Positions 7,494 through 27,009 of a stretch of DNA of 27,009 nt are shown here, piece by piece. Position 1 is the first letter of the stretch, and each line of letters begins with the position of its first letter. The DNA is taken from the IMG/VR virus record IMGVR_UViG_2537562014_000005. One strand, written 5' to 3'. The position numbers and the translations under genes were made by a program. A model generated the notes under the pieces. It was not told the origin of the DNA. It was given only the letters and a program-made list of their open reading frames with translations, and did no database searches. The DNA comes from a virus. Lineage: Duplodnaviria > Heunggongvirae > Uroviricota > Caudoviricetes.

Positions 7494-7550
7494 AGCAATT
7501 TAGATAATCGTGCAGACTACGCCCCCTCATATCACATGGAAGGTTTATCT

Positions 7551-8112: not shown

Positions 8113-8286
8113 TCAGATTAAATTAATCTTGACATCATAGCTTTCAAGACCCGTCATTTTTTCCCGTGCGGTAAACTGAATACTGGTAACTTCTTTCCCG
8201 GTCTTTTTCTTAAGTTCAATAATTTTTTTTGTTATATATTTAGAAATATCTGCTTCTGCTTTTGTTTTTAAGTTTTCAATATTCAT
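8113..8286 (-). CDS. gnsB: GnsA/GnsB-family small protein (57 aa)
   Basis: Hand-translated reverse strand gives MNIENLKTKAEADISKYITKKIIELKKKTGKEVTSIQFTAREKMTGLESYDVKINLI; below the length cutoff of the ORF track; closely resembles the GnsA family. Confidence 0.8.
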   Translation of the reverse strand: MNIENLKTKAEADISKYITKKIIELKKKTGKEVTSIQFTAREKMTGLESYDVKINLI

Positions 8287-8457
8287 CATTTCCTCTTTTA
8301 GTCTGTTATGACTTTCCAGTTACACAGTAAGTCGATTATATGGTGCAAACGTGTAAAAGATAAGATGAAACATCGCAATAATCAACATACGATAGTCTAA
8401 ATTTTACACAAACAGACAAAGAGAATTTTCCTGAATTATCAATGCAATAGCATCAAA

Positions 8458-8752: not shown

Positions 8753-8959
8753 CTTCATTTTCACTTTTTTAAATCCAACGACAGACGGCTGGCATTTAAG
8801 TATTGTGAAATATTATCAAATGTAATCATCATTGATTTACAAAAGATACATTTTGCCCCGAAAGGATTCATGTCAGAAACATCAAAAGATGATGTTCTAT
8901 ACTGGGAACCATGACAACACGGGCATCTAAAGTGAATATGGTTTGTAATATTGTCTACC

Positions 8960-9172
8960 TCAAAGCGCCACTACATGAACAGCGGCAGGACCTTTAGGTC
9001 CGTTCTCAATACCAAATTCAACTTCCTGATTCTCAGTTAATGTTTTGAAATCGTTGCTCTGAATTGCTGAGAAATGGACAAACACATCTTTGCTGCCATC
9101 TTTCGGCGTGATGAAACCAAAACCTTTTTCAGGGTTAAACCATTTCACTAAACCAGTCATTTTGTTAGACAT
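8960..9172 (-). CDS. cspI: Cold shock protein CspI (CspA family, 70 aa)
   Basis: Cold-shock domain with RNP motifs (KGFGFI, VFVHF). Confidence 0.9.
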
Positions 9173-9533
9173 AATTATTACCTTTTGAAGAAATTAGCCC
9201 TTGGGCAGAATGGTCCGAAAAAAATATCAGAGAGAAAAACCAACAAGGAAATCTCAAGAGGTACAAATAATAAAATTATAACAATGACTGCTTCAGATAA
9301 ATTTGTAACAAACCAGAACACCATTAACGCATGATTAACCACCCATAGCAAGGATTACTTTTGTAAAGAAAAACACAGCAATGAAAGAATAGCTTTATTT
9401 ATTAATAAAACGTGTCATTCTGATTAAGACCTTTTATCTTACCCTTAAGATTTCAGGAATTTTGGCTCATGGAAGAGTCCTTTTTATTTAAATTTTACAT
9501 TCCGCGATGTAAATGTTCCGATTTAATATTACC

Positions 9534-10561: not shown

Positions 10562-10869
10562 ATATATTTATGATGAGGACGCTCGTGCTTATTGGCAGGA
10601 TTTTCAATCTTAAAGGAGTACTGATGCTGCAGATAAGACTCAACTTTTTCTGACAATTTTTCTGCTACTTCCAGGAAGACTTGCCGGACGCTCCTTCTGG
10701 CTGCTGCCTCATAAAACTCCAGCGCAGCTCCTTCAACACGGTCCATGGCGACATCCAGGTCAAAAATTTCACCGTCAAAGCGTTCCTTGTCCTGTAAGGC
10801 TACAGTTACCGTAACTTTATTCTCAAAATTACGGACTCCTTTCACAACCAGTTCATAGTCTTGAGTCAT
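10558..10869 (-). CDS. ydfR: Hypothetical prophage protein between holin and endolysin
   Basis: 103-aa ORF; length and position match my recollection of ydfR. Confidence 0.65.
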
Positions 10870-10873
10870 TGGA

Positions 10874-11089
10874 TTACTCTCCTCTCGCAGCCTTACGCCT
10901 GTCTTCTTTAATCTTGAAATAAAGATTTGTCAGATACGTCAGCAGGCCAAAAACCAGGCTACCCAGCACACCGATTGCAGCCCACTGTGACGGAGTTACT
11001 TTATCGAGTAACTGCAATGCCCAGAAACCAGCATTACCCGCCGATGTGCCATAGGCAACACCTGTTGTTAACTTATCCATTGATTTCAT
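10874..11089 (-). CDS. essQ: Phage 21-type class II holin/antiholin (71 aa) with dual-start motif MKSM
   Basis: Sequence [28 protein letters not shown]... resembles the phage 21 S holin as I recall it; two in-frame ATGs at codons 1 and 4. Confidence 0.85.
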
Positions 11090-11308
11090 ATCCTCACCCC
11101 GATGTACACGGATGGTGCAATATGTTTGAAAAGATCGGAGTCTACGGGGTAGTTTTGACAGCACACGTTGTTCTCAACGGCGCTAAAAAAACATACACAT
11201 TAAAAATGTGGGTAATTATTTTGAAAGAAAGTCATATATAAAATAATAATACGAGAAATGTTTTCATATTTAGTGTACTGTATACGGCCATTTATACAGG
11301 AAAAGCCT

Positions 11309-11479
11309 ATGTCAGAACGTAAAGACTCAAAATCACGCCGTAATTATCTCGTTAAATGTTCCTGCCCAAACTGCACCCAAGAGTCAGAACACAGTTTTTC
11401 AAGAGTACAAAAAGGTGCCCTTTTGATCTGCCCTCATTGCAACAAAGTATTCCAGACAAATCTTAAAGCTGTAGCCTGA
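11309..11479 (+). CDS. Small zinc-ribbon protein (two CxxC pairs)
   Basis: ATG at 11309 preceded by AGGAAAAG; CPNC and CPHC pairs about 20 residues apart. Confidence 0.5.
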   Translation: MSERKDSKSRRNYLVKCSCPNCTQESEHSFSRVQKGALLICPHCNKVFQTNLKAVA

Positions 11480-11842
11480 TTGATTTTATTAGTAACAAGT
11501 ATTTTTTATATTTTAATAATATATTTAAAGCAGATAATAAAAAACCCGCCTGAGCGGGTTTGAGATTGTGGTGCTTTTTGTGGGAGTCATCCACTTACGC
11601 ACTTTGTTTTGCGATGCCAGCAGTTAGCTTCTGCTGTGAAACTATTCATGCAGCAAACCTGCACTTCACCACAATGGTTAGCATACTTTTCCTGATTAAG
11701 ATTTTGCCAAATATGCTGGCCATTGTTTCATGTATTGGACCTCCTTACTTTTTATTAAAGAGATCCAATATTCACTACTCTGTCCGTATCTCTACTCAGG
11801 CATCAGCCTTCTTCGTTATCGTATACAGACGAGCGATGAATT

Positions 11843-12058
11843 TTAATCAGTAATGATGACATTTACTGCTGCAGGACCTTTAGCACCACTCTCTATAGAG
11901 AAGGTAACCTTTTGACCTTCAAATAAGGTTCGATAATTATCATTCTGAATCGCAGAAAAATGCACAAACACATCTTTACTACCATCAACAGGAGAAATAA
12001 AGCCGAAACCTTTATCAGCGTTAAACCATTTTACTAAACCAGTCATTTTATTTGACAT
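11843..12058 (-). CDS. cspB: Cold shock protein CspB (CspA family, 71 aa)
   Basis: Cold-shock domain with RNP motifs. Confidence 0.9.
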
Positions 12059-12368
12059 TCTACATTCCTTAACTTGAGCCTTTCGGCATAAATGGTTTGC
12101 ATAACAGAAACGACTTCGTACTTAATTGGAGAGACTCAAAGAAGGAATAAGTGAATAACACCTGAAATGAGAACTGCTTTAGTAAACTACTTCGTATATC
12201 GTCTGTTCTTCAAACCGACGCAGTCATTAACTCATAGTTGAACATATGAAGCAATGTTTATTTTAGACATCCAGCCACCTTCAATCCTATCAAAAAAGTA
12301 GTTTTCTCCAGGAACGTGTGTATGGTGCACCAGGTTATCAGTATTAAGGAGTTTTTCTGTCCCCTAAA

Positions 12369-12569
12369 ATGACAGGAATTGTCAAAAACTTTGACGGCAA
12401 AAGCGGCAAGGGTCTTATCACCCCATCCGATGGTCGTATCGATGTCCAGCTTCATGTTTCAGCGCTCAATCTCCGCGATGCAGAAGAAATTACCACCGGA
12501 TTACGCGTGGAATTTTACCGGATAAATGGTCTGCGTGGCCCTTCAGCTGCCAATGTTTACCTTTCATGA
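12369..12569 (+). CDS. cspF: Cold shock protein CspF-like (66 aa from the first ATG)
   Basis: Cold-shock domain; in-frame TAA at 12345 leaves only CTG-TCC-CCT-AAA before the ATG, so the N-terminus is shorter than the 70 aa I recall for K-12 CspF. Confidence 0.75.
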
Positions 12570-12623
12570 GCTATATTAAAGCTTTAATTTCAGGCCCCAT
12601 CGGATCACACATGGAGAGTTTTT

Positions 12624-12713
12624 ATGAATAACCCCGTCTGTCTTGATGACTGGTTGATTGGCTTTAAAATCTTATGCTGTACTTTGGCCGTAATAGCTCT
12701 GCTAATAATATAA
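12624..12713 (+). CDS. Possible 29-aa single-pass membrane peptide
   Basis: ATG at 12624 preceded by GGAGAG at 5 nt spacing; product [29 protein letters not shown] is strongly hydrophobic; below the ORF-track cutoff. Confidence 0.25.
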
Positions 12714-12808
12714 TAAGCAGACTCATTGTGTTTAGGGACATTGTGATCTTACCCAGCAATAGTGGACACGCGGCTAAGTGAGTAAACTCTCAGTCAGAGG
12801 TGACTCAC

Positions 12809-13108
12809 ATGACAAAAACAGTATCAACCAGTAAAAAACCCCGTAAACAGCATTCGCCTGAATTTCGCAGTGAAGCCCTGAAGCTTGCTGAACGCATCGG
12901 TGTTACTGCCGCAGCCCGTGAACTCAGCCTGTATGAATCACAGCTCTACAACTGGCGCAGTAAACAGCAAAATCAGCAGACGTCTTCTGAACGTGAACTG
13001 GAGATGTCTACCGAGATTGCACGTCTCAAACGCCAGCTGGCAGAACGGGATGAAGAGCTGGCTATCCTCCAAAAGGCCGCGACATACTTCGCGAAGCGCC
13101 TGAAATGA
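12809..13108 (+). CDS. insE: IS3 transposase OrfA (InsE-like, 99 aa)
   Basis: Matches my recollection of IS3 InsE ([31 protein letters not shown]...). Confidence 0.85.
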
Positions 13109-13971
13109 AGTATGTCTTTATTGAAAAACATCAGGCTGAGTTCAGCATCAAAGCAATGTGCCGCGTGCTCCGGGTGGCCCGCAGCGGCTGGTATACGTGG
13201 TGTCAGCGGCGGACAAGGATAAGCACGCGTCAGCAGTTCCGCCAACACTGCGACAGCGTTGTCCTCGCGGCTTTTACCCGGTCAAAACAGCGTTACGGTG
13301 CCCCACGCCTGACGGATGAACTGCGTGCTCAGGGTTACCCCTTTAACGTAAAAACCGTGGCGGCAAGCCTGCGCCGTCAGGGACTGAGGGCAAAGGCCTC
13401 CCGGAAGTTCAGCCCGGTCAGCTACCGCGCACACGGCCTGCCTGTGTCAGAAAATCTGTTGGAGCAGGATTTTTACGCCAGTGGCCCGAACCAGAAGTGG
13501 GCAGGAGACATCACGTACTTACGTACAGATGAAGGCTGGCTGTATCTGGCAGTGGTCATTGACCTGTGGTCACGTGCCGTTATTGGCTGGTCAATGTCGC
13601 CACGCATGACGGCGCAACTGGCCTGCGATGCCCTGCAGATGGCGCTGTGGCGGCGTAAGAGGCCCCGGAACGTTATCGTTCACACGGACCGTGGAGGCCA
13701 GTACTGTTCAGCAGATTATCAGGCGCAACTGAAGCGGCATAATCTGCGTGGAAGTATGAGCGCAAAAGGTTGCTGCTACGATAATGCCTGCGTGGAAAGC
13801 TTCTTTCATTCGCTGAAAGTGGAATGTATCCATGGAGAACACTTTATCAGCCGGGAAATAATGCGGGCAACGGTGTTTAATTATATCGAATGTGATTACA
13901 ATCGGTGGCGGCGGCACAGTTGGTGTGGCGGCCTCAGTCCGGAACAATTTGAAAACAAGAACCTCGCTTAG
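13105..13971 (+). CDS. insF: IS3 transposase OrfB (InsF-like, 288 aa; DDE catalytic domain)
   Basis: Matches my recollection of IS3 InsF; overlaps orfA; AAAAG slippery motif at 13071..13075. Confidence 0.85.
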
Positions 13972-14124
13972 GCCTGTGTCCATATTACGTGGGTAGGATC
14001 ATTGTACTGGAAGAAAACATTTTAAACATCAGGCAAATAACCAAGTCACCAGCTAAATAATAAGTTAACAGACATGAGTCCCGGGATGAGATTCAACATT
14101 ACCATTGCCCCATTTAAAGCACAA

Positions 14125-14144
14125 AACCCGCTCATCAGCGGGTT
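14125..14144 (-). terminator. Candidate tR' (hairpin AACCCGCT-CATC-AGCGGGTT, T-rich on both sides)
   Basis: Stem-loop about 50-70 nt downstream of the candidate late promoter; T-rich tracts follow on both strands. Confidence 0.45.
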
Positions 14145-14191
14145 TTCTACTTTTTCTTAACGTCGGGTATACAAAGCCCATCGTTGAAAAA

Positions 14192-14220
14192 ATTTTATCC
14201 ATATTTTTTGAAAAATGCAA
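14192..14220 (-). promoter_or_regulatory. Candidate late promoter pR' (-35 TTGCAT, 17-bp spacer, -10 TAAAAT)
   Basis: On the minus strand just downstream of the Q stop codon: -35 at 14215..14220, -10 at 14192..14197. Confidence 0.4.
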
Positions 14221-14251
14221 ACATCATGTCGCCATCTTCAGCAAAAATCAT

Positions 14252-15004
14252 TTATCTCGTCACCTTCCTCAATTGCGCTTCCGCGTATGCTTCTTCCTGC
14301 CAGCACTTTGTTACCAGTTTACCAATGACGTCCGCATACCCCTTATACCACTGATAATCGGTCAGGTCTGGTACCAGCTTCTGGACATGACGTCGTGCCA
14401 GCGTGGTCGGTAAACGACTAAACCGGTTTCCATTACAACGCCCACAAATCTTATATACCGGTACGCCATGAAACCGGGTTCTTTTTTCATCCAGAACAAT
14501 CCCTTTACCCTTACACCCTCTGCACGCTGTGCTGGCTTCGCCCTTACCATGGCAATGCTGACATAGTTCCTTCACCCATTCTTCCTTGATTACAGATTCC
14601 CCGCGTCTGTAGTGTTTCACCACTTCGCGCAATACATTATAAAATCCCGTACCTGAACAATGCTCACAGCGAGCCTTACTTGCCGCAGACCTGGAGTAAT
14701 CAGCAAAGGCAAAACTCACGAGGTAAGGAATAATCTGTAACCGGATTTCTTCACTCAATTTGTTCAATGTCGGGTTATCCAGTGCCATCGCGTAATTTAG
14801 CAGGCCTTCAATCGCAAACTGAGGGTCCTGAACACCAACTTTTGCCAGAAATAAGGCCAACCCAAGTGGTGCTTTCGACTGCACCATCCCCTGCGCTGCC
14901 ATTACATCCGTAATTGTTAAACAACCGGTGCCTGTCGCTGAAGCGTCATCGCTCAATTTTGGAGATTTTGGGGAGTAATATTTTGGTAAGGCTTCAAGGT
15001 TCAT
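14252..15004 (-). CDS. quuQ: Late-gene antiterminator Q (phage 82/21 Q family; Cys-rich zinc-binding region)
   Basis: ORF 14252..15034; ATG at 15004 gives 250 aa; CxxC/HC clusters (CEHCSGTG, CQHCHGKG, CRGCKGKG, CGRC); located upstream of the lysis cassette. Confidence 0.8.
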   Translation of the reverse strand: MNLEALPKYYSPKSPKLSDDASATGTGCLTITDVMAAQGMVQSKAPLGLALFLAKVGVQDPQFAIEGLLNYAMALDNPTLNKLSEEIRLQIIPYLVSFAFADYSRSAASKARCEHCSGTGFYNVLREVVKHYRRGESVIKEEWVKELCQHCHGKGEASTACRGCKGKGIVLDEKRTRFHGVPVYKICGRCNGNRFSRLPTTLARRHVQKLVPDLTDYQWYKGYADVIGKLVTKCWQEEAYAEAQLRKVTR

Positions 15005-15017
15005 GCTCGTTCTCCAC

Positions 15018-16067
15018 TTACGCCAGTACGCCAATTGCCAGCGCGCGATCGATAAAACGAAATATCAGCTCCAGTTGGGAGCCATACTTATCTTCAAATG
15101 CCACTGTATCCGTATGCAGCTCGTTGTGATGCTTTCTGCACAAAGGCAACACAAAGAGATCATGTGCTTTTGTTCCCATTCCGCCCTGCCCGTGACCAAT
15201 CAGATGATGCGGATCGTCGGCTGGCATACCGCAGCAAGCACACGGCTGTGTCTTAACCCAACGTGTGTATTTCTCCTTAACCCAGCGGCGACGTTTAGGC
15301 AGCTTCATGAAAGATTCCGGAGACTCTGGATCAACGGTGATGCTTACCACCGTCTTTTCCTGTGGTGATTTTTGTTGCTGGTGGGCGTAAGGCAACGGTG
15401 CAAGATTTTTTGTGCGTTGTTTCAATATGCTGGTGGCGGTCTGCTCTCCCGGTACGATGTCGCTTTCGCGGTACACCGAGCAGATTTTTTCCGCTGGTAA
15501 TCCCAGCGAACGACGCGATACAGCCTCAGGTAGTGCATCCACCACCTGATTGCAGACCGCCCACCAGGATAATTCAGCCAAAGATAATTCCCGCTCCTGC
15601 GTACCGCTTATTGCGTGACGGATGACGTCAATCACCCATGCTGTCAGATTTTGTTGAGCAAGCAGCTCCAGTGATTCCGATGTCTGGTCACGCAGTTGGT
15701 TGTCGCAGTGCCAGCACAACACCATTGCGCCGGTACCATAACGGTGAATGACTGTTTCAGTGTGATGGTAATCGCCATTAGGCCACTGGCAGGATGTAAC
15801 ATGACGTAATAGCCAGTCGGACAATGCGCCAACGCCGCCAGCAGCACGAATCACCCGTTCGTTACTAAAAAACGGCAGCAATGTTTTGTCTTCCGCCAGC
15901 GGCTGGCGAACGGCAGGAACGACTCCGGATGGCAGATTACGCATGCTTTTTGGTTCCGGTTCCACCAGCACTCGAGGATTATGAAATATCTGTATGGATT
16001 CACGGCCCGGCTTAAGGACCACCAGCCCAAGCTCAGGCACCAGAACAGGTCTAAGTAATACCCGCAC
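15018..16067 (-). CDS. ydfU: DUF968-like protein with C-terminal HNH nuclease motif
   Basis: GTG at 16067 gives 349 aa, matching my recollection of ydfU; motif CACCGMPADDPHHLIGHGQGG...CRKHHNELH. Confidence 0.65.
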   Translation of the reverse strand: MRVLLRPVLVPELGLVVLKPGRESIQIFHNPRVLVEPEPKSMRNLPSGVVPAVRQPLAEDKTLLPFFSNERVIRAAGGVGALSDWLLRHVTSCQWPNGDYHHTETVIHRYGTGAMVLCWHCDNQLRDQTSESLELLAQQNLTAWVIDVIRHAISGTQERELSLAELSWWAVCNQVVDALPEAVSRRSLGLPAEKICSVYRESDIVPGEQTATSILKQRTKNLAPLPYAHQQQKSPQEKTVVSITVDPESPESFMKLPKRRRWVKEKYTRWVKTQPCACCGMPADDPHHLIGHGQGGMGTKAHDLFVLPLCRKHHNELHTDTVAFEDKYGSQLELIFRFIDRALAIGVLA

Positions 16068-16413: not shown

Positions 16414-16665
16414 TTATTCTCCTGAAAAAGCAGAAAAGCCAGCTTTTATTCCGATCTCTTTCAATGCCTGTAATGAAGTGACAAACTCACCTTCGCGCAA
16501 GATAAATCCGTCCGTGACCCGAGCATCCACAAAATTAATTAACGCAGCCCCATTCTTTCGCAAACACATAATGCGGTAATGACTAACAAGATTTCCATTT
16601 TCAACGCACACAGCATAGAGGCCATCTTCACAAAAAATTTTACGCAGTTCTTCGATGTTCATCAT
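16414..16665 (-). CDS. rem: Hypothetical 83-aa prophage protein
   Basis: Length and position (between ydfU and hokD) match my recollection of rem; the sequence itself was not recognised. Confidence 0.45.
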   Translation of the reverse strand: MMNIEELRKIFCEDGLYAVCVENGNLVSHYRIMCLRKNGAALINFVDARVTDGFILREGEFVTSLQALKEIGIKAGFSAFSGE

Positions 16666-18936: not shown

Positions 18937-19434
18937 TCAATCTTTTTTATCGGGATCAGGCTTCTTTTTAGGTAACTTCGGGGGCTTAACTTGCTGATGA
19001 CTTTGCGTTCGGCGCGTAAGCCAGGGATGGTCAGCTTTAGGTTTAACATAGTATTTTGAGCGTAAATCAATACGGGCATTATCCACTCGTTCATGGACAC
19101 TCTTTTCATCATCCGGTGGTATAGGCTCCGGGCCATCAACATACTTTTCCCGGCCCAGCGCTTTCCCGTCATACAGAACGTTAATTTCACCGTCAAAGTT
19201 CTCGCATACAGTAACAACCGAATGCCTAAGTCGATATCCCCGGCCCTCACTGCGTACCTGAAACGCACTGCTTTTGTACTGGAAAGTGAGATTTTTAGAC
19301 AGAACGCGCTTCGCCTGTAGGCTGAAGATATAACCCAGTTCCTCTTCAGAATGGTGCACATCAAGATGAGCATTATCAGTAGTACGAGGCGACGTAGCGA
19401 ACCGGTTGTTATAGGCTTCAATAAAGGTCGGCAA
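18937..19434 (-). pseudogene. C-terminal remnant of a DDE transposase/integrase-like gene
   Basis: TTG-initiated 165-aa ORF whose start resembles the end of an rve-type catalytic domain (FIEAYNNRFA...); in-frame stop immediately upstream; a second long ORF overlaps in another frame. Confidence 0.4.
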
Positions 19435-19442
19435 TCCATTAA

Positions 19443-19731
19443 TCTAGTTGCCGGATGTTGGTGGATTTTCGCGTTTTAGTTGTTCATAAAAGTGCACAGC
19501 TTTAACCAGTTCTTCTGATGTAACTGGGACTGGTGAGGCAGTGAATAAGGCCTGAATTTGATAGTTCGGCCTGTCGTTACAATCCTCTTTTTTCGGTACA
19601 TATTTCCAGTCACCAGACCACTACTTCCCCTGAAAGTCCGTAACGCCTTTTTTCACGTAGCGATATCGCCATGCCACTGGTTTTGCTTGCCCCGCCGTTT
19701 CATGCCCTTCCTGATAATTAATCTCGCTCAT
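19443..19731 (-). pseudogene. Decayed small ORF (frame switch plus in-frame TAG)
   Basis: ATG at 19731 gives a 40-aa product; a second frame carries protein-like sequence interrupted by TAG at 19620..19622 and ends at 19443. Confidence 0.3.
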
Positions 19732-19919
19732 TCATCGCCCCACTCATCACAATATGCTTCGACCGGAGTTTTTCCCGCTTCATAGTCATCACGCTAGGAT
19801 TCGACATCAGCAGCACTTCCACCGCGTAACTCACCATAGTCCATTAATAGTTCATCCCGCTCTTCAAAACTGATGTTATATTTAGCTGAACAAAAATCAG
19901 CCACTTTGTTCTTCCTCAT
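19728..19919 (-). pseudogene. Small ORF interrupted by an in-frame amber codon
   Basis: MRKNKVADFCSAKYNISFEERDELLMDYGELRGGSAADVES, then TAG at 19794..19796, then RDDYEAGKTPVEAYCDEWGDE and stop; overlaps the next ORF by ATGA. Confidence 0.3.
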
Positions 19920-20341
19920 CGTCTTTTATTTCGTGGTATGAGTAATTGCAGTAGTTAAAGAAAATTTCTTATGCTCCGTCATGAATTTCCTCAGGTGTTG
20001 CGTCATCGTCCACTTCGAATACATCCTCAAAATCTCCACCAGCTATTCCCGTTTCAATAATAATTTTGAACTTTCGCATTTCACTACCGCCCTTTCGGGC
20101 GGCCTCCTGATGTTCTGAGGGTGCAGAAATCCATCCGGTTAAGGATTAAATTTTATTTACAGAACTGAATTTAATTATTCAGATATACGTATCTGTAGCC
20201 TTACGAATCTACTCACTGGATGCCTCTTTCATAAAAATAATCCAGTGGGTTTTATCGTTTTTTCCCTGTTCGTTGACAGATAACAGGTTTTCTGTCTGTC
20301 AGTGCCAGAATCTGGCTTACCGGTATTTGCGTTTCATTCCA

Positions 20342-20698
20342 TTAAAAAATCAGAACGCCGTGCGGCCTCAACACCCGAAAGGCTTCTTTAAATCTCTGTC
20401 GCGAATCATCACGCCAGGCATCTTTATTCAGCCGTCCATATTTCTTTCCCATCCAGGCGTTATCACCAACACTCTCAAGATGCGGAGGGTCTAATACAAC
20501 CATCGAAAAAGATGCGTCTGCAAATGATAATGCACGAAAATCTGCGATAATGTCAGGGCTGATAATCAAGCGTCTCCCATTGCGTAATGTGTATCCTTCT
20601 TTTCTGATATCGCTGAATATCGCCCGTTCGTCAGACTTATCGAACCAGAACATGCGGCTGCCACAGCACATATCAAGAATGGTTGCCGGTGCACTCAC
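20342..20698 (-). CDS. SAM-dependent amino-methyltransferase (DPPH motif IV), possibly C-terminally truncated
   Basis: 118-aa ORF with LDMCCGS (motif I-like) and DPPH; translationally coupled (ATGA) to the upstream Ren-like gene; 29 further sense codons follow the TAA stop. Confidence 0.55.
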   Translation of the reverse strand: MSAPATILDMCCGSRMFWFDKSDERAIFSDIRKEGYTLRNGRRLIISPDIIADFRALSFADASFSMVVLDPPHLESVGDNAWMGKKYGRLNKDAWRDDSRQRFKEAFRVLRPHGVLIF

Positions 20699-21117
20699 TG
20701 CGCCACGTCCTGAAAATTACCCTGATAGAAAGCCAGTATGCGCTGCATAACTTCGCTCTTCCGGCACTCGCGACAGATTATGTTTAGGCGACTGTCGTAG
20801 CGACGTATTTCTCCGTCAGGTGATGACCAGATAAGGTCCGGATCAACCACAGCAGGTTTCTTCACCTTTGCCCTCGAGAGTTTTTTGCGGGCGTTTTGCC
20901 AGTCCTTACGCGCCTGTTCAGAGGGGAATAACCCGTAGCCGGAGTTGTATACATCGCCACTGGCTACCAGCTCTCTGGCAAGAACGCTCATCAGATATCT
21001 AGTCGCACCTGTTTTAGCTTCCAGTTGCCGTAACGTCTCACGGCCGCTCTGGCGCACGAGTTCCACCACCTGCCATTTAATTTTTTCCCGCTCTTCTTGT
21101 GTAAAAACTTTTGCCAC
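20695..21117 (-). CDS. Ren-like protein (140 aa)
   Basis: GTG start preceded by AAGGGGGA; C-terminus RECRKSEVMQRILAFYQG resembles lambda Ren KECRQSAAMKRVLAVYG as I recall it. Confidence 0.45.
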   Translation of the reverse strand: MAKVFTQEEREKIKWQVVELVRQSGRETLRQLEAKTGATRYLMSVLARELVASGDVYNSGYGLFPSEQARKDWQNARKKLSRAKVKKPAVVDPDLIWSSPDGEIRRYDSRLNIICRECRKSEVMQRILAFYQGNFQDVAQ

Positions 21118-21157
21118 AAGTCCCCCTTAAAATTACCTCATGACCTGAAATCAACAC

Positions 21158-21382
21158 TTATCCTCTGAAACCAGGCGGAATTTCTGTATCCGGTTCAGAA
21201 ATATGATTAACACAACGCTGTACAGGTGAACGTCCCAGGCGGATGACCAGTTCGTCCCATTTTTCGCGGAGCTTTGACGGGCTCATGATGTTTTTTACCC
21301 AGAATGGATCTCGCTGAACCCGACCAAACATTTCGCAAATTTGTCTGTGGCTTCTGCCATCCAGCATCCGCATTGTGCGCAC
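21158..21382 (-). CDS. Hypothetical 74-aa protein immediately downstream of the replication initiator
   Basis: ORF only; occupies the position of a helicase-loader gene but is far too short and has no ATPase motif. Confidence 0.3.
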   Translation of the reverse strand: MRTMRMLDGRSHRQICEMFGRVQRDPFWVKNIMSPSKLREKWDELVIRLGRSPVQRCVNHISEPDTEIPPGFRG

Positions 21383-21391
21383 GTCATTGGC

Positions 21392-22177
21392 TCAGGCAGT
21401 CCAGTTAGGCTCTTTTGGTCGCATGATCTCGCCATCATCACTGGCTGCCTGTTCGTAGAGACCCACGATCCGCCCCCAGATCCACTGCGCACACGCCAAA
21501 TCCTCCCTGCTACCCCACTGGCGTTTTTTCGCACTAAACACAACCGCGTCGGAGTTCCGGGTTAAAAAATCCTGTTCAGTCGTCTGCGGGTCCGGTTGCG
21601 AAGCTTCCGGACGAAAAGTGTTTTTATTCTCTGTAGTAATCTCTGTTGTATTCTCTGTAAGATCATCAGGCCATTTTGACCCGATGACATTGGGTCGTTT
21701 TGAACCAATGGAGCGTTTCATTTTGACCTCTTCCATCGTGTCATTTTGACCTGATGGAGCGGCGCATTTTGAACCGATGGATTCGCTCAATTTGCCACCA
21801 TCTAAAAGCTCGCTCCCATAGTTGATCGTGTAGAAATTGGTCATATCGCGCTTTGATTTATTGAGCTTTTCACAACGCAAAAGCCCCAGCGTTTTCAGAC
21901 TTGCAAACGCGCGCTTTAACGTTGACTCTGACCAGAATGGGAACTGTTCCAGCCATTGTTCCGTTGTGTTATAAATCCAGCGAACACCATCACATTCCAT
22001 GCCGGAGTTGGTATCTCTCAACCAGTAGTGCAGTTGTTGCAAAACAATGGCTTCGTTTAAGCCAATTTTCATTGCCAGCTGCGTGTTTATAACCAGTGGG
22101 CGTTCAGCAAAAAGAAGGCTCATAATTCCATCCAGCTTTTTGTTGGTATTGCTGTCGATACGCAAGTTTGAAAGCAA
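21392..22177 (-). CDS. Lambda O-like replication initiator with internal origin iterons
   Basis: 261-aa ORF with an N-terminal winged-helix-like region; six tandem 23-bp repeats inside the coding sequence; start codon uncertain (alternative ATG at 22123). Confidence 0.65.
   Translation of the reverse strand: MLSNLRIDSNTNKKLDGIMSLLFAERPLVINTQLAMKIGLNEAIVLQQLHYWLRDTNSGMECDGVRWIYNTTEQWLEQFPFWSESTLKRAFASLKTLGLLRCEKLNKSKRDMTNFYTINYGSELLDGGKLSESIGSKCAAPSGQNDTMEEVKMKRSIGSKRPNVIGSKWPDDLTENTTEITTENKNTFRPEASQPDPQTTEQDFLTRNSDAVVFSAKKRQWGSREDLACAQWIWGRIVGLYEQAASDDGEIMRPKEPNWTA
21670..21811. repeat. Six direct iterons of 23-24 bp (core ATTTTGACC/ATTTTGAAC): putative ori
   Basis: Core starts at 21673, 21697, 21720, 21743, 21766 and 21789; lies in the middle of the O-like gene, as lambda ori does in O. 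Confidence 0.7.
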
Positions 22178-22325
22178 TTGCTTTTTCTATAAGTTCGTCA
22201 GTTTCACGATCCACTACGGCAGGATCAGCAAAAAGCAGTCCGGACTCCACCACATCGCCATATTCTTTGTTTAACCCGGCGATCATGCACGTGATGCTTT
22301 TTCCGTCAGTAATTTCACGATACAA
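22104..22325 (-). CDS. Doubtful ORF in the junction between the replication and dicB operons
   Basis: 73-aa ORF with TTG start and no convincing ribosome-binding site; no HTH pattern recognised; overlaps the predicted O-like start. Confidence 0.2.
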   Translation of the reverse strand: MYREITDGKSITCMIAGLNKEYGDVVESGLLFADPAVVDRETDELIEKAIAFKLAYRQQYQQKAGWNYEPSFC

Positions 22326-22429
22326 CCTGAAATCATTAATCCGGATATCCGGCGTTAATTGTTAACTGGTTAACGTCACCTGGAGGCACCAGGCACTGCA
22401 TCACAAAATTCATTGTTGAGGACGCGATA

Positions 22430-22618
22430 ATGAAAACGTTATTACCAAACGTTAATACGTCTGAAGGTTGTTTTGAAATTGGTGTCACTATCAGTAACCC
22501 AGTATTTACTGAAGATGCCATTAACAAGAGAAAACAAGAACGGGAGCTATTAAATAAAATATGCATTGTTTCAATGCTGGCTCGTTTACGTCTGATGCCA
22601 AAAGGATGTGCACAATGA
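22430..22618 (+). CDS. dicB: Cell division inhibitor DicB (62 aa)
   Basis: ATG preceded by GAGGA; length and sequence (MKTLLPNVNTSEGCFEIGV...) match my recollection of DicB. Confidence 0.75.
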   Translation: MKTLLPNVNTSEGCFEIGVTISNPVFTEDAINKRKQERELLNKICIVSMLARLRLMPKGCAQ

Positions 22619-22806
22619 ATTCAGCATTTGTGCTTGTTCTGACAGTTTTTCTTGTTTCCGGAGAGCCAGTTGATATTGCAGTCAGTGTTCACAGGACAAT
22701 GCAGGAGTGTATGACTGCAGCAACCGAACAGAAAATTCCCGGTAACTGTTACCCGGTCGATAAAGTTATTCACCAGGATAATATCGAAATCCCGGCAGGT
22801 CTTTAA
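22615..22806 (+). CDS. ydfD: Small protein with N-terminal hydrophobic segment, YdfD-like (63 aa)
   Basis: ATG overlaps the dicB stop (ATGA); N-terminal hydrophobic stretch FVLVLTVFLV; length and position match ydfD. Confidence 0.7.
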   Translation: MNSAFVLVLTVFLVSGEPVDIAVSVHRTMQECMTAATEQKIPGNCYPVDKVIHQDNIEIPAGL

Positions 22807-22898
22807 AACAGTTCCGTAATAAATATCCGGTTTCATTCTTATATGCCAGCAATGGCAGGGATTTGTTCATCCTTAAATCTGTCATGAGGTTAAAACAA

Positions 22899-25370
22899 AT
22901 GAGTAAAGTCTTTATTTGCGCCGCTATTCCTGACGAACTGGCAACAAGGGAAGAAGGCGCTGTGGCTGTAGCCACAGCCATTGAAGCTGGCGACGAACGC
23001 CGTGCTCGAGCAAAATTTCACTGGCAATTCCTGGAACATTATCCGGCTGCTCAGGACTGCGCTTATAAATTTATTGTCTGCGAGGATAAACCTGGCATAC
23101 CCCGCCCTGCCCTCGATTCATGGGATGCTGAATATATGCAGGAAAACCGCTGGGATGAGGAGTCTGCTTCTTTTGTCCCGGTTGAGACTGAATCCGATCC
23201 GATGAACGTCACTTTTGACAAGCTGGCCCCTGAAGTACAGAACGCTGTCATGGTTAAGTTCGACACATGTGAAAACATCACCGTTGATATGGTTATTAGC
23301 GCACAGGAATTGTTGCAGGAAGACATGGCAACATTCGACGGACATATCGTTGAAGCGTTGATGAAAATGCCAGAAGTTAACGCCATGTATCCGGAGCTTA
23401 AGTTGCACGCCATTGGGTGGGTTAAGCATAAATGTATTCCTGGTGCTAAATGGCCCGAAATTCAGGCAGAGATGCGCATCTGGAAAAAACGTCGCGAAGG
23501 TGAACGCAAGGAAACCGGAAAATACACGTCTGTTGTTGATCTCGCCCGCGCCAGAGCCAATCAACAGTACACTGAAAATTCAACAGGAAAAATCAGCCCG
23601 GTCATTGCTGCCATTCATCGCGAATACAAGCAGACATGGAAAACACTGGATGACGAACTGGCCTACGCTCTCTGGCCTGGTGATGTGGATGCCGGAAACA
23701 TTGACGGCAGCATCCATCGCTGGGCAAAAAAAGAAGTTATCGACAACGACCGCGAAGACTGGAAGCGTATCTCGGCATCAATGCGCAAACAGCCTGATGC
23801 CCTTCGCTACGACCGCCAAACTATTTTTGGCCTTGTCCGTGAGCGTCCGATCGACATTCACAAAGATCCCGTAGCACTGAACAAATATATCTGCGAATAC
23901 CTGACGACAAAGGGCGTGTTTGAGAATGAAGAAACAGACCTGGGCACTGTTGATGTTCTCCAGTCATCAGAAACACAAACTGATGCAGTGGAAACTGAGG
24001 TATCTGATATCCCAAAAAATGAAACCGCGCCGGAAGCTGAACCATCTGTAGAGCGTGAGGGGCCGTTCTATTTCCTCTTCGCAGATAAGGACGGAGAAAA
24101 ATACGGTCGCGCAAACAAACTCTCTGGTCTGGATAAGGCACTGGCTGCTGGCGCCACTGAAATCACAAAAGAAGAATATTTTGCCCGAAAAAATGGCACA
24201 TACACGGGCTTACCGCAAAATGTAGATACCGCTGAAGATTCAGAACAACCAGAGCCGATAAAAGTTACCGCTGACGAAGTAAACAAAATTATGCAGGCAG
24301 CCAATATCAGCCAGCCTGACGCCGATAAGTTGCTTGCTGCATCACGTGGTGAATTTGTTGAAGGGATTAGTGACCCGAATGATCCGAAATGGGTTAAGGG
24401 GCTCCAGACCCGCGATTCTGTGAACCAGAACCAGCATGAATCGGAACGGAACTACCAAAAAGCGGAACAAAACAGTCCAAATGCGTTACAAAACGAGCCA
24501 GAAACGAAACAGCCTGAACCAGTAGCGCAACAGGAAGTGGAAAAAGTCTGCACCGCCTGCGGTCAGACCGGCGGCGGCAACTGCCCTGATTGTGGCGCGG
24601 TGATGGGCGACGCAACATACCAAGAAACATTCGATGAAGAGTATCAGGTTGAAGTTCAGGAAGATGATCCGGAGGAAATGGAAGGCGCTGAACATCCACA
24701 CAAGGAGAACACTGGCGGCAATCAGCATCACAATAGCGATAATGAAACTGGCGAGACGGCAGATCACCCAATTAAGGTGAACGGTCATCACGAAATCACA
24801 TCCACCAGCAGGACGTGTGACCATCTAATGATCGACCTTGAAACCATGGGAAAAAATCCTGATGCCCCGATCATCTCAATAGGTGCAATATTTTTCGATC
24901 CGCAAACCGGAGATATGGGACCGGAATTTAGTAAGACTATCGATCTGGAAACTGCTGGCGGAGTCATTGATCGGGACACCATTAAATGGTGGCTTAAGCA
25001 ATCACGCGAAGCGCAATCTGCCATTATGACCGATGAAATCCCGTTAGATGATGCACTGTTACAATTGCGAGAATTTATCGACGAAAACTCCGGTGAATTT
25101 TTTGTTCAGGTTTGGGGAAATGGAGCCAACTTCGACAACACGATTTTGCGCCGTTCATACGAACGGCAGGGGATCCCCTGCCCGTGGCGTTACTACAACG
25201 ATCGCGATGTACGCACAATCGTTGAGCTGGGGAAAGCCATAGACTTCGATGCCAGAACGGCTATTCCATTCGAAGGTGAGCGCCATAATGCACTTGATGA
25301 CGCCCGTTACCAGGCAAAATACGTTTCAGTTATCTGGCAAAAACTGATCCCGAGTCAGGCTGATTCTTAA
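22899..25370 (+). CDS. RecE-like exonuclease VIII family protein with C-terminal DnaQ-like (DEDDh) 3'-5' exonuclease domain
   Basis: ATG at 22899 preceded by GAGG; central motif KLLAASRGEFVEGISDPNDPKWVKG recalled from RecE-family proteins; C-terminal motifs DLETMG, FDNTIL and H-x4-D (HNALDD). K-12 ydfE appears to be a truncated ortholog. Confidence 0.75.
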   Translation: MSKVFICAAIPDELATREEGAVAVATAIEAGDERRARAKFHWQFLEHYPAAQDCAYKFIVCEDKPGIPRPALDSWDAEYMQENRWDEESASFVPVETESDPMNVTFDKLAPEVQNAVMVKFDTCENITVDMVISAQELLQEDMATFDGHIVEALMKMPEVNAMYPELKLHAIGWVKHKCIPGAKWPEIQAEMRIWKKRREGERKETGKYTSVVDLARARANQQYTENSTGKISPVIAAIHREYKQTWKTLDDELAYALWPGDVDAGNIDGSIHRWAKKEVIDNDREDWKRISASMRKQPDALRYDRQTIFGLVRERPIDIHKDPVALNKYICEYLTTKGVFENEETDLGTVDVLQSSETQTDAVETEVSDIPKNETAPEAEPSVEREGPFYFLFADKDGEKYGRANKLSGLDKALAAGATEITKEEYFARKNGTYTGLPQNVDTAEDSEQPEPIKVTADEVNKIMQAANISQPDADKLLAASRGEFVEGISDPNDPKWVKGLQTRDSVNQNQHESERNYQKAEQNSPNALQNEPETKQPEPVAQQEVEKVCTACGQTGGGNCPDCGAVMGDATYQETFDEEYQVEVQEDDPEEMEGAEHPHKENTGGNQHHNSDNETGETADHPIKVNGHHEITSTSRTCDHLMIDLETMGKNPDAPIISIGAIFFDPQTGDMGPEFSKTIDLETAGGVIDRDTIKWWLKQSREAQSAIMTDEIPLDDALLQLREFIDENSGEFFVQVWGNGANFDNTILRRSYERQGIPCPWRYYNDRDVRTIVELGKAIDFDARTAIPFEGERHNALDDARYQAKYVSVIWQKLIPSQADS

Positions 25371-25442
25371 TGTTCAACTGTCGCCGGTTGTGACTGGTAT
25401 TCTGCAACCGGCGCTCGTCTGATGTAAGAGATAAAGAAATCG

Positions 25443-25694
25443 ATGAGCGAAGTAATCATGATTGTCTCTCCCGGCAAATGGGTATCCGAAGAGCAGTTAA
25501 TTGCGCTGAAAGGAATAAAAAAAGGTACGTTAAAAAAGGCCCGGGAAAAATCGTTTATGGAAGGAAGGGAATATAAGCATGTCGCTCATGACGGTATGCC
25601 ATGGGATAACAGTCCATGCTTTTACAACCTGGAAGAAATTGATCGCTGGATTGAGCGCCAGGCATCAGCGAGACCAAGACGTCATCTTACTTGA
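25443..25694 (+). CDS. Excisionase-like small protein
   Basis: 83-aa basic ORF immediately upstream of the integrase; start codon uncertain. Confidence 0.5.
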   Translation: MSEVIMIVSPGKWVSEEQLIALKGIKKGTLKKAREKSFMEGREYKHVAHDGMPWDNSPCFYNLEEIDRWIERQASARPRRHLT

Positions 25695-25728
25695 CTAAAA
25701 GCCACACTAACTAATGAGAGAAGTTGAA

Positions 25729-27009
25729 ATGAAATATCCGACAGGCGTGGAAAACCATGGAGGGAAATTACGTATCTGGTTTGTTTATAAAGACGTAAGA
25801 GTCAGGGAAAATCTGGGGGTTCCTGACACAGCAAAAAACAGGCGCGTTGCAGGTGAACTACGCTCCTCTGTTTGTTACGCAATAAAAACTGGTGTTTTCG
25901 ACTATGCAAAACAGTTTCCCTCCTCACGCAATCTGGAAAAATTTGGTGAGGCCCGACAAGATTTAACCATAAAAGAACTGGCTGAAAAATTTCTGGCACT
26001 GAAAGAAACTGAAGTCGCCAAAACATCACTCAACACATACCGTGCCGTCATCAAAAATATCCTGAGCATAATCGGTGAAAAAAATCTTGCCTCATCGATT
26101 AATAAAGAAAAATTACTGGAGGTTCGTAAAGAGTTACTGACTGGATACCAGATCCCCAAAAGTAACTATATTGTTACACAACCAGGGAGATCGGCTGTAA
26201 CTGTAAATAATTACATGACAAATCTTAACGCCGTGTTCCAGTTTGGTGTTGATAACGGTTACCTGGCAGATAATCCGTTTAAGGGGATCTCGCCATTAAA
26301 GGAATCAAGAACCATTCCGGATCCTCTTTCGCGGGAAGAATTTATCCGTCTTATCGATGCGTGCAGAAATCAGCAAGTAAAAAATTTATGGTGTGTTTCT
26401 GTTTACACTGGAGTTCGCCCTGGTGAGCTGTGTGCACTTGGATGGGAGGACATAGATCTGAAAAATGGAACAATGATGATCAGGAGAAATTTAGCAAAAG
26501 ACCGTTTCACGGTACCAAAAACACAGGCGGGAACCAATCGGGTCATTCATCTTATTAAGCCAGCAATCGACGCTCTCCGGAGTCAGATGACATTAACGAG
26601 ACTGAGCAAAGAGCATATCATTGATGTTCACCTCAGAGAGTATGGCAGAACAGAAAAACAAAAATGCACCTTTGTTTTTCAACCTGAAGTGTCAGCGAGA
26701 GTAAAAAATTATGGTGGCCATTTTACCGTTGACTCAATAAGGCAGATGTGGGACGCAGCGATAAAACGTGCCGGACTCCGCCATCGAAAATCATATCAGT
26801 CGAGACATACTTATGCCTGCTGGTCGCTGACAGCTGGTGCTAACCCGGCATTTATAGCAAACCAGATGGGCCATGCAGATGCGCAAATGGTATTTCAGGT
26901 ATACGGAAAATGGATGTCTGAAAACAATAATGCACAGGTAGCTTTGTTAAATACACAGTTAAGCGAGTTTGCCCCAACCATGCCCCATAACGAAGCAATG
27001 AAAAATTAA
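25729..27009 (+). CDS. intQ: Tyrosine site-specific integrase (lambda Int family), apparently intact
   Basis: ORF 25714..27009 (second ATG at 25729 preferred); C-terminal catalytic motifs (R...HxxR...Y region: SRHTYACW, GHADAQMVFQVYGKW); symbol by synteny only; stop codon is the last triplet of the window. Confidence 0.8.
   Translation: MKYPTGVENHGGKLRIWFVYKDVRVRENLGVPDTAKNRRVAGELRSSVCYAIKTGVFDYAKQFPSSRNLEKFGEARQDLTIKELAEKFLALKETEVAKTSLNTYRAVIKNILSIIGEKNLASSINKEKLLEVRKELLTGYQIPKSNYIVTQPGRSAVTVNNYMTNLNAVFQFGVDNGYLADNPFKGISPLKESRTIPDPLSREEFIRLIDACRNQQVKNLWCVSVYTGVRPGELCALGWEDIDLKNGTMMIRRNLAKDRFTVPKTQAGTNRVIHLIKPAIDALRSQMTLTRLSKEHIIDVHLREYGRTEKQKCTFVFQPEVSARVKNYGGHFTVDSIRQMWDAAIKRAGLRHRKSYQSRHTYACWSLTAGANPAFIANQMGHADAQMVFQVYGKWMSENNNAQVALLNTQLSEFAPTMPHNEAMKN

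What the first reader, a model, noticed from the sequence alone, without database searches (positions are those of the whole stretch)
22100..22430. No recognisable immunity region between the divergent replication and dicB/recE operons
The O-like replication gene (minus strand, start about 22123-22177) and dicB (plus strand, start 22430) are only about 250 bp apart. A lambdoid map, and K-12 Qin as I recall it (dicC, dicA, ydfA, ydfB, ydfC, dicF), would place cro-like and cI-like repressor genes, operators and the DicF sRNA here. Instead there is one doubtful TTG-initiated ORF with no HTH pattern, a perfect 14-bp palindrome AAAGCAATTGCTTT (22162..22175) at the predicted O-like start, a 12-bp palindrome CCGGATATCCGG (22343..22354) and three GTTAAC/TTAAC repeats. 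This looks like a deletion scar that leaves dicB-ydfD without its cognate DicA-type repressor, or an unconventional regulatory arrangement.
Basis: partly seen in the sequence, partly recalled or inferred. Interest (0 to 1): 0.6.

Follow-up and report, generated by a model that had tools for sequence, protein, structure and literature searches.

The report
Prophage immunity region lost by deletion
The missing repressor region is a clean 2.2-kb deletion in a Qin-type E. coli prophage that removed the on/off switch, the DicF small RNA and the only known promoter of the toxic dicB gene; this is ordinary prophage decay, except that independent strains have cut at the very same bases.

Summary
The window is a Qin-family lambdoid prophage at the ydfJ/rspB site. 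The phage PhiR42_1 is 99.9% identical on both flanks. Against it, the window lacks 2,166 bp.

**What was lost:**
- codons 1-93 of the YdaT/CII-like gene
- dicC (cro-like) and dicA (cI-like)
- the operators and the promoter dicBp
- ydfA, ydfB, ydfC and dicF

**The junction.** It is the TA at 22346-22347, at the centre of the 12-bp palindrome CCGGATATCCGG, so the deletion created that palindrome. The "doubtful TTG ORF" is the C-terminal 80 codons of ydaT.

**No replacement found.** No cI/Cro-type HTH gene and no DicF occur anywhere in the window.

**Effect on dicB.** dicB is not left derepressed. It lost its repressor and its only documented promoter together, so it is most likely silent (inferred, not measured).

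**Frequency.** The same junction is in 182 of 5,426 complete E. coli genomes.

**Unexplained extra.** Independent deletions reuse the same TA dinucleotides. The right endpoint has five different left partners. K-12's ydfX ends at the same TA as the window's ydaT remnant. Two sister strains deleted separately from an intact progenitor that is 99.9-100% identical. No mechanism was identified.

The parts
21158..22123 (-). O-like replication initiator gene (321 codons in relatives). In this window it is a pseudogene: TGG to TGA at codon 244 (window base 21392).
   Evidence: RefSeq CDS WP_000054512.1 at the equivalent position in L001, L002 and L016. The nonsense change was found by comparison with PhiR42_1.
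22104..22346 (-). Remnant of the YdaT/CII-like gene: codons 94-173 only. The N-terminal 93 codons are deleted.
   Evidence: tblastn with the full 173-aa protein of PhiR42_1 matched residues 94-173 at 100% identity to 22346..22107. RefSeq annotates the same stretch as a pseudogene 'missing N-terminus'. The full-length protein hits Pfam YdaT_toxin.
22171..22184 (.). 14-bp perfect palindrome AAAGCAATTGCTTT, inside ydaT coding sequence. It is native and unrelated to the deletion.
   Evidence: Located. Identical in the intact relatives aligned. About 1.9 such palindromes are expected per window.
22346..22347 (.). Deletion junction: a TA dinucleotide shared by the two parental sites. Site A is ...AATCCGGA|TA|GCCTCC in ydaT. 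Site X is ...TTCTCTG|TA|TCCGGCG, 84 nt upstream of dicB. The missing stretch is 2,166 bp, PhiR42_1 locus L006 8449..10614.
   Evidence: BLAST of the window against L006: 19433..22347 maps to 5534..8448 and 22346..27009 maps to 10615..15278, both at 99.9%. Parental sequences are shown.
22341..22352 (.). 12-bp palindrome CCGGATATCCGG, created when CCGGATA (site A) was joined to TATCCGG (site X). It is absent from intact relatives.
22348..22429 (+). Native 82-nt dicB leader, identical to K-12. It contains GTTAAT-T-GTTAAC-TG-GTTAAC and a CCTGG-AGGCA-CCAGG inverted repeat. It is now cut off from dicBp and DicF.
   Evidence: Alignment to K-12. The same element lies upstream of kilR in Rac-like prophages. 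No promoter-like site was found on the plus strand.
22430..22618 (+). dicB, intact (62 aa)
   Evidence: Pfam DicB, E = 1.9e-40. Corresponds to WP_000854559.1.
22615..22806 (+). ydfD, intact (63 aa, DUF1482)
   Evidence: Pfam, E = 3.9e-26.
22899..25370 (+). 823-aa exonuclease with a DEDD / Rv2179c-like 3'-5' domain at residues 642-813. K-12 ydfE is its N-terminal fragment. It is not RecE by domain content.
   Evidence: Pfam. RefSeq names it 'exonuclease' or '3'-5' exonuclease'.
25443..25694 (+). Excisionase (DUF1233)
   Evidence: Pfam, E = 1.6e-31.
25729..27009 (+). Integrase, the last gene of the now promoterless leftward operon
   Evidence: RefSeq CDS at the equivalent position in L001.
16414..16665 (-). 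rem, the antirepressor of DicA. It is retained although its target has been deleted.
   Evidence: Exact match to the start of K-12 Rem. Function taken from PMC10448788.

Best explanation
The interval is the scar of one 2,166-bp illegitimate-recombination deletion in a Qin-family lambdoid prophage.

**What happened (shown).** The break joined a TA inside the ydaT/CII-like gene (codon 93/94) to a TA 84 nt upstream of dicB. That removed the following:
- the 5' half of ydaT
- dicC (cro analogue) and dicA (cI analogue)
- both operator/promoter regions, including dicBp
- ydfA, ydfB, ydfC and the DicF sRNA

It also created the palindrome CCGGATATCCGG.

**Consequence (inferred).** Both divergent early promoters went together with the repressor. 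So neither the rightward replication operon nor the leftward dicB-ydfD-exonuclease-xis-int operon has a known promoter, and no repressor is needed. The prophage is locked in and transcriptionally orphaned. The nonsense codon in the O gene adds to its decay.

**Why such deletions are seen (inferred).** In K-12 the DicA/DicC switch flips spontaneously. Derepressed dicBp is toxic through DicB and DicF. Only deletions that remove dicA together with dicBp, or with dicB and dicF, should be viable, and these also remove the cost of spontaneous flipping.
For: **Deletion mapped against intact relatives**
- The flanks are 99.93% and 99.91% identical to intact PhiR42_1, with a 2-bp overlap at the break. 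The parental sites are shown.
- Intact gene order is seen in PhiR42_1, HannyBb, Ecol_224 and XJW9B263.
- The ydaT remnant matches residues 94-173 at 100% identity. RefSeq flags it as an N-terminally truncated pseudogene.

**Nothing relocated within the window**
- DicF is found by Rfam in intact relatives and in the J2 variant, but not in the window.
- None of the deleted segment occurs elsewhere in the window. No DicA, DicC, YdfA, YdfB or YdfC homologue was found, and no XRE/Cro-type HTH in 519 six-frame segments.

**Promoter loss**
- No plus-strand sigma-70-like promoter lies upstream of dicB.
- PMC10448788 reports that dicBp lies upstream of ydfA, that no evidence for other promoters was found, that a dicA deletion fully derepresses dicBp, and that about 1% of cells switch spontaneously.

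**Frequency**
- The same junction is present in 182 of 5,426 complete E. coli genomes.
Against: - Silence of dicB is inferred only. No expression data exist for any strain with this junction. The promoter scan is a simple consensus match, and read-through or weak promoters antisense to the O gene and ydaT' cannot be excluded.
- dicB and ydfD remain intact and identical to K-12. This could reflect retained function and low-level expression, or simply a recent event.
- The selective argument is extrapolated from K-12 experiments.
Confidence: 0.88

Rival explanations
1. dicB-ydfD is left constitutively expressed, or regulated in some unconventional way, because its DicA repressor is gone.
For: DicA and DicC are absent from the window. 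dicB and ydfD are intact. The conserved leader with the GTTAAC repeats is retained.
Against: dicBp and all operators lie inside the deleted segment. No other promoter was found experimentally in K-12 or by the scan here. Derepressed dicBp is toxic in dicBF+ cells, yet 182 genomes carry this junction.
Confidence: 0.08
2. The arrangement is native to a distinct phage lineage and is not a deletion.
For: The junction occurs on several different flank alleles: the window type, the 042 type, hybrid L010 and L073.
Against: The gene to the left is truncated in the middle of its reading frame. The intact 173-aa form exists with each of two alleles. Prophages with the junction are otherwise visibly decayed, with IS insertions, other deletions and a nonsense codon in the O gene. 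No phage record carries the junction.
Confidence: 0.02
3. Origin of the shared junction, view 1: the A::X junction arose once, long ago. It reached different backgrounds by homologous recombination of its flanks. The other variants (A::Y, B::X, U::X and so on) are unrelated chance events.
For: The flanks are mosaic, with block boundaries at gene borders. Hybrid allele L010 shows recombination inside the 243-bp remnant.
Against: SNPs differ up to 9 bp to the left and 6 bp to the right of the junction between the window and 042. A::Y and B::X sit on backgrounds that are 100.000% and 99.9-100% identical to one intact prophage, XJW9B263, sharing its IS66 insertion and two private SNPs. These two were therefore separate recent events. 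Site X has five different left partners, site A four partners and site U two. This cannot come from a single event.
Confidence: 0.3
4. Origin of the shared junction, view 2: the endpoints are true hot spots. Some sequence- or structure-directed process breaks or joins at particular TA dinucleotides, so the same deletions recur independently. Possible causes are a barrier to resection or replication just to the right of site X, a nuclease, or a topoisomerase.
For: Reuse of the same TA dinucleotides as listed under view 1. Twelve of 13 junctions in or around the immunity region have TA in the microhomology. Site A and the reverse complements of sites X and W all read CCGGATA. K-12's ydfX ends at the TA of site A.
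Against: The pattern was found post hoc. My searches were anchored on the A and X sequences, which gives some ascertainment bias. No candidate mechanism passed a test: no IS with a 2-bp TA duplication, no good match to the gyrase consensus, and the att core differs. Several junctions (U::X, V::A) have 5-15 bp of imperfect direct repeat and need no special mechanism.
Confidence: 0.5

Closest known systems
Qin cryptic prophage of E. coli K-12 (dicC-dicA-ydfABC-dicF-dicB-ydfD-ydfE)
   Same: Same chromosomal site (ydfJ/rspB) and the same dicB, ydfD, leader, relBE, hokD, rem, flxA and lysis genes, at 99-100% identity. Both are deletion-decayed.
   Different: K-12 kept the immunity switch, DicF and the N-terminal 93 codons of ydaT (ydfX), and lost the O gene and the C-terminal part of ydaT. 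The window kept the O gene and the C-terminal 80 codons of ydaT, and lost the switch and DicF. The two remnants meet at the same TA. K-12 also lost most of the exonuclease and integrase through IS2.
Escherichia phage PhiR42_1 (PV340562.1, from ECOR13) and the XJW9B263 prophage
   Same: 99.9% identical over all shared sequence. They show the undeleted state.
   Different: They retain the 2,166 bp that hold ydaT(N-terminal part)-dicC-dicA-ydfABC-dicF.
Lambda-type CI/Cro immunity region, and classical deletion survivors of prophage induction
   Same: Divergent early operons flank a repressor/cro switch. Loss of the switch together with both early promoters gives a locked-in cryptic prophage.
   Different: DicA lacks the RecA-cleavage site and is controlled by the Rem antirepressor. 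The CII role is filled by a YdaT-family protein (PMC9986795). No induction experiment was done here.
Rac prophage racR-ydaS-ydaT module
   Same: Same module logic (repressor, cro-like gene, YdaT, O-like gene), and the same conserved leader upstream of the first leftward gene (kilR).
   Different: The proteins and the integration site differ. The module is intact in the loci examined.

Membership tests
Qin-family lambdoid prophage at the ydfJ/rspB site | Integration between ydfJ and rspB, with the att core of this phage group | tested here: met
   The left prophage end lies next to ydfJ' at about window 1285. The core GAAATCCATAA is shared by the left prophage end (attL) in the window, the phage site (attP) of PhiR42_1 and the right prophage end (attR) of L001. 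rspB follows int in L001.
Qin-family lambdoid prophage at the ydfJ/rspB site | dicB-ydfD leftward operon with the downstream exonuclease, xis and int | tested here: met
   Pfam DicB, DUF1482, Rv2179c-like and DUF1233. 100% identity to K-12 over 22346..23665.
DicA/DicC (CI/Cro-like) bistable immunity switch | An HTH_3/XRE repressor gene and a divergent cro-like gene, with operators between them | tested here: not met
   DicA of PhiR42_1 hits HTH_3 (E = 1.3e-16). Nothing in the window matches DicA, DicC, lambda CI, lambda Cro, 434 Cro or P22 C2. The deleted DNA is not found elsewhere in the window.
DicF sRNA (Rfam RF00039) | Match to the covariance model at the gathering score | tested here: not met
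   No hit in the window. Hits of 72-77 bits in L002, L006, L007 and L012.
YdaT / CII-equivalent regulator | Full-length protein with the N-terminal DNA-binding (POU-like) domain | tested here: not met
   Only residues 94-173 remain. The remnant has no Pfam hit, whereas the full-length protein hits YdaT_toxin at residues 59-131. No YdaT-operator-like TTGATTN6AATCAA site lies nearby.
RecE (exodeoxyribonuclease VIII) | ExoVIII catalytic domain | tested here: not met
   The Pfam scan at E <= 0.01 returned only Rv2179c-like and RNase_T (DEDD) domains for 22899..25370.
Gyrase-mediated illegitimate recombination hot spot | Breakpoints at strong matches to the gyrase cleavage motif | tested here: inconclusive
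   Only the published consensus string was available (PMC6379681 supplement). A crude match score put site A at the 64th percentile, X, Y and R at the 87th, T at the 77th, B at the 97th and U at the 99.9th, after taking the best of 10 offsets. No consistent signal.
IS630/Tc1-type (TA-duplicating) element footprint | Related loci with an insertion flanked by a 2-bp TA duplication at these sites | tested here: not met
   The insertions found in 240 related loci were IS66-type (overlaps of 6-9 bp), an IS3-family element (4 bp), IS2 (12-bp overlap at its ends) and a roughly 600-bp insert with no overlap. None had a TA duplication.

The most novel reading that the evidence does not exclude
A site-preferring, as yet unidentified process repeatedly deletes the switch of Qin-type prophages by joining specific TA dinucleotides. 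Several of these sit in CCGGATA/TATCCGG. Under this reading, independent E. coli lineages, including K-12 (the ydfX boundary), silenced the toxic dicBF operon by nucleotide-identical or near-identical deletions. That would be parallel domestication through a deletion hot spot rather than random decay.
Probability: 0.35. Interest if true: 0.6.

Novelty: new member of a known kind. Interest (0 to 1): 0.35.

Why it matters
**The scar itself.** It explains an apparent anomaly as normal prophage decay. It also corrects the reading that dicB is unrepressed.

**Practical consequence.** About 3% of complete E. coli genomes, including the enteroaggregative reference strain 042, lack DicA, DicC and DicF at this locus but keep dicB and ydfD. 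Results on DicF or DicA regulation and on DicB-mediated phage resistance obtained in K-12 should therefore not be transferred to these strains without checking.

**The reused endpoints.** If their reuse reflects a real hot spot, this locus offers a natural and easily selectable system for studying how illegitimate deletions choose their endpoints. Loss of a toxic, bistable switch is the selectable event. It would also be a clear case of parallel prophage domestication.

Tried and rejected
**Searches for a relocated or replacement repressor**
- An HTH repressor hidden elsewhere in the window: tblastn, phmmer and a small HTH profile over all six frames found nothing.
- The deleted DNA relocated within the window: no.
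- A YdaT operator motif near the scar: no.
- A promoter upstream of dicB: none by consensus scan.

**Candidate mechanisms for the reused endpoints**
- A common ancestor junction B::Y that could give rise to A::Y, B::X and A::X by small secondary deletions: 0 of 5,426 genomes.
- An A::X strain on the A::Y / B::X background, which a 'partial restoration' model needs: none found. An intact progenitor (XJW9B263) was found instead.
- Integrase acting at secondary sites: the att core GAAATCCATAA is not at the junctions.
- A TA-duplicating IS element: none among 240 related loci.
- The gyrase cleavage motif: no consistent match. My post-hoc 'G|NNNN|C' framing does not fit the published preference for scission immediately before G.
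- Pin/Hin-type crossover sites, Ter/Tus, matS, Chi, REP and RuvC/RusA preferences: compared from memory only. None fitted, and none was formally tested.

**Other**
- The metagenome scan for other partners of site A returned only two contigs, both A::X.
- The palindromes as functional operators: rejected. One was created by the junction, the other is coding sequence, and both are within chance expectation.

Full report
**1. What the window is.** The window is a Qin-family lambdoid prophage of E. coli, integrated between ydfJ and rspB. It aligns at 99-100% with K-12 Qin over the lysis genes, cspB/F, ydfT/U, rem, hokD, relBE, ydfV, flxA, dicB, ydfD and the start of ydfE. It is 99.9% identical to Escherichia phage PhiR42_1 from ECOR13 (PV340562.1, locus L006), whose record carries a complete early region. 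The att core GAAATCCATAA is shared by the left prophage end (attL) in the window, the phage site (attP) of PhiR42_1 and the right prophage end (attR) of a near-identical chromosome.

**2. The observation.**
- The O-like gene starts at ATG 22123 on the minus strand, and dicB starts at 22430 on the plus strand, 306 bp away.
- The interval contains a minus-strand ORF (22104..22325, TTG start), a 14-bp palindrome and a 12-bp palindrome.
The correct positions are 22171..22184 and 22341..22352.
- Palindromes of this size are not unusual here: 11 of 12 nt or more in the window, against 7.2 +/- 2.9 in shuffles.

**3. What the interval is.**
- BLAST against PhiR42_1 gives two collinear blocks. Window 19433..22347 maps to L006 5534..8448, and window 22346..27009 maps to L006 10615..15278. 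They are 99.93% and 99.91% identical and overlap by the dinucleotide TA. The window therefore lacks L006 8449..10614, which is 2,166 bp.
- In PhiR42_1 that stretch holds the first 93 codons of a 173-aa YdaT-family (CII-equivalent) gene and a dicC (cro-like) gene. It also holds dicA (HTH_3, E = 1.3e-16), ydfA, ydfB, ydfC and DicF (Rfam, 76.7 bits).
- HannyBb, Ecol_224 and XJW9B263 show the same intact order.
- The minus-strand ORF in the window is residues 94-173 of YdaT at 100% identity. RefSeq annotates the same stretch in matching genomes as a pseudogene 'missing N-terminus'.
- The parental sites are A = AATCCGGA|TA|GCCTCC and X = TTCTCTG|TA|TCCGGCG. Joining them makes CCGGATATCCGG, so the deletion created the 12-bp palindrome.
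- The 14-bp palindrome encodes EKAIAFKL within ydaT and is present in intact relatives.
- The GTTAAC repeats belong to the native dicB leader, identical in K-12. They are also found upstream of kilR in Rac-like prophages.

**4. Is a repressor hiding elsewhere?** No.
- The deleted DNA has no copy in the window. DicA, DicC, YdfA, YdfB and YdfC give no tblastn hit better than E = 0.86.
- phmmer with DicA, DicC, lambda CI, lambda Cro, 434 Cro and P22 C2, plus a small HTH profile, found nothing better than E = 0.12 in 519 six-frame segments.
- Rfam finds no DicF in the window.

**5. Consequence for dicB.**
- Published work on K-12 (PMC10448788) places dicBp upstream of ydfA. It found no evidence for another promoter between ydfA and dicF.
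- The same work shows that DicA represses dicBp and that Rem is its antirepressor. It also shows that the DicA/DicC switch flips spontaneously in about 1% of cells, with no such colonies recovered when dicBF is present.
- dicBp and all operators lie inside the deleted segment, and no sigma-70-like site is predicted on the plus strand upstream of dicB in the window.
- I therefore infer that dicB-ydfD-exonuclease-xis-int is promoterless and silent, not derepressed. The rightward promoter for ydaT and the O gene is gone too.
- The O gene in this window also carries a nonsense codon, W244*.
- rem survives (16414..16665) without a target.
- These functional statements are inferences. No expression data were available.

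**6. How common is it?** The exact junction, called J1 (A::X) here, is in 182 of 5,426 complete E. coli genomes. These include strain 042, two metagenome contigs and three IMG/VR contigs. About 1,167 genomes have site A intact.

**7. An unexpected pattern: reused endpoints.** Other deletions at this locus share one endpoint with J1 to the base.

| Junction | Sites joined | Where seen |
|---|---|---|
| J2 | A::Y (Y is 6 nt upstream of DicF, so DicF is kept) | 4 genomes |
| J3 | B::X (B is 60 bp further into ydaT, at a GATAGCCT repeat of A) | 1 genome |
| J5 | A::Z (Z is inside rspB) | 3 genomes |
| J6 | W::Z (W is in the exonuclease gene) | same genome as J2 |
| J8 | U::X (U is in dicC) | strain MB06234 |
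| J9 | T::X (T is in the O gene) | IMG/VR contig L152 |
| J10 | S::X (S is in ydfU) | IMG/VR contig L170 |
| J11 | U::R (R is in ydfA) | IMG/VR contigs L104, L060 |
| J7 (K-12) | V::A | K-12 lineage |

- In K-12, ydfX is the N-terminal 93 codons of YdaT and ends at the same TA where the window's remnant begins.
- Site X therefore has five different left partners, site A has four partners, and sites U and Z have two each.
- Twelve of 13 junctions in or around the immunity region have TA in the microhomology.
- Site A and the reverse complements of sites X and W all read CCGGATA.

**8. Independent events or shared descent?**
- The J2 strain AHB21 is 100.000% identical over 6,103 bp to the intact prophage of XJW9B263. 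The J3 strain MLI105 is 99.9-100% identical to it.
- Both share its IS66 insertion and two private SNPs, one on each side of the junction. J2 and J3 were therefore separate, recent deletions from that intact state.
- A hypothetical common ancestor junction B::Y is absent from all 5,426 genomes. No J1 exists on that background.
- J1 itself occurs on at least four flank backgrounds. SNPs differ within 9 bp to the left and 6 bp to the right of the junction, and the intact 173-aa gene is known with each of the two ydaT alleles compared.
- Flank exchange by recombination could explain part of this (hybrid allele L010). It cannot explain the many different partners.
- Some ascertainment bias exists because my searches were anchored on the A and X sequences. 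However, J2, J3 and J8 were recovered as full-coverage two-piece hits, and a variant sharing neither endpoint would have been found equally well.

**9. Mechanism of the reuse: unresolved.**
- *Tested and negative:* identity with the att core; an IS element with a TA duplication in 240 related loci; similarity to the published gyrase consensus.
- *Needing no special mechanism:* U::X (CTGTA) and V::A (about 15 bp of imperfect repeat) are ordinary short-homology deletions.
- *Left unexplained:* A::X, B::X, A::Y and A::Z share only TA, plus one or two scattered bases.
- *Untested ideas:* a barrier to resection or replication at the conserved element just to the right of X, or a nuclease that prefers TA.

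**10. Verdict.** The finding is a real feature with an ordinary explanation: a deletion scar in a decaying prophage. Its 'unrepressed dicB / unconventional regulation' reading is not supported, because the promoter went with the repressor. The locus is a further defective member of the Qin family, already present and pseudogene-flagged in RefSeq, though I found no paper describing it. The reuse of endpoints is the only part that might interest a specialist. It is recorded as unexplained, with a laboratory test proposed.

Noticed in passing
window 22346-22347; L003 (K-12) 7359-7360; L002, L005, L008, L013, L152, L170, L104: Independent deletions in Qin-type prophages reuse the same TA dinucleotides. 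Site X has 5 left partners, site A has 4 partners, and U and Z have 2 each. K-12 ydfX ends at the same TA at which the window's ydaT remnant begins. Twelve of 13 junctions carry TA. No mechanism was found.
   Followed up: partly
window 21392 (O-like gene 21158..22123, minus strand): TGG to TGA nonsense at codon 244 of the replication initiator. It was not seen in PhiR42_1 or the other loci aligned over this position (L001, L002, L004, L007, L008, L012), so the O gene is a pseudogene in this strain.
   Followed up: yes
K-12 ydfE is its N-terminal fragment.
   Followed up: partly
window 16414..16665 (minus strand): rem, the antirepressor of DicA, is intact although dicA is deleted. It is an orphan regulator.
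   Followed up: no
window 22348..22400; L014 2505-2574; L015 2502-2564: The leader to the right of the junction (GTTAAT-T-GTTAAC-TG-GTTAAC followed by CCTGG-AGGCA-CCAGG) is conserved upstream of dicB in Qin-like prophages and upstream of kilR in Rac-like prophages. A 6-bp indel lies exactly at site X. Its function is unknown.
   Followed up: partly
window 12745..13995: An IS3-family element (orfA at 12800..13108, orfB at 13105..13971) interrupts the window relative to K-12 between cspF/ynfS and ydfT.
   Followed up: no
window 19433..19439: A second deletion relative to PhiR42_1 (L006 3965..5533, about 1.57 kb) lies next to the IS1202-like/ISNCY transposase remnant (ydfW). It is shared with IMG/VR contig L127, which also has the A::X junction.
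   Followed up: partly
L006 about 10150 (between ydfC and dicF) in 13 IMG/VR loci: A roughly 600-bp insertion with no target duplication is present in some relatives, in either orientation. It may be a small moron or mobile cassette.
   Followed up: no
window 3342..3540 (minus); 8933..9317 and 11796..12219 (minus): Rfam hits at gathering score: IS009 sRNA inside the tail-fibre assembly gene region, and two cspA-type thermoregulator leaders (cspI and cspB). These are expected Qin features.
   Followed up: no
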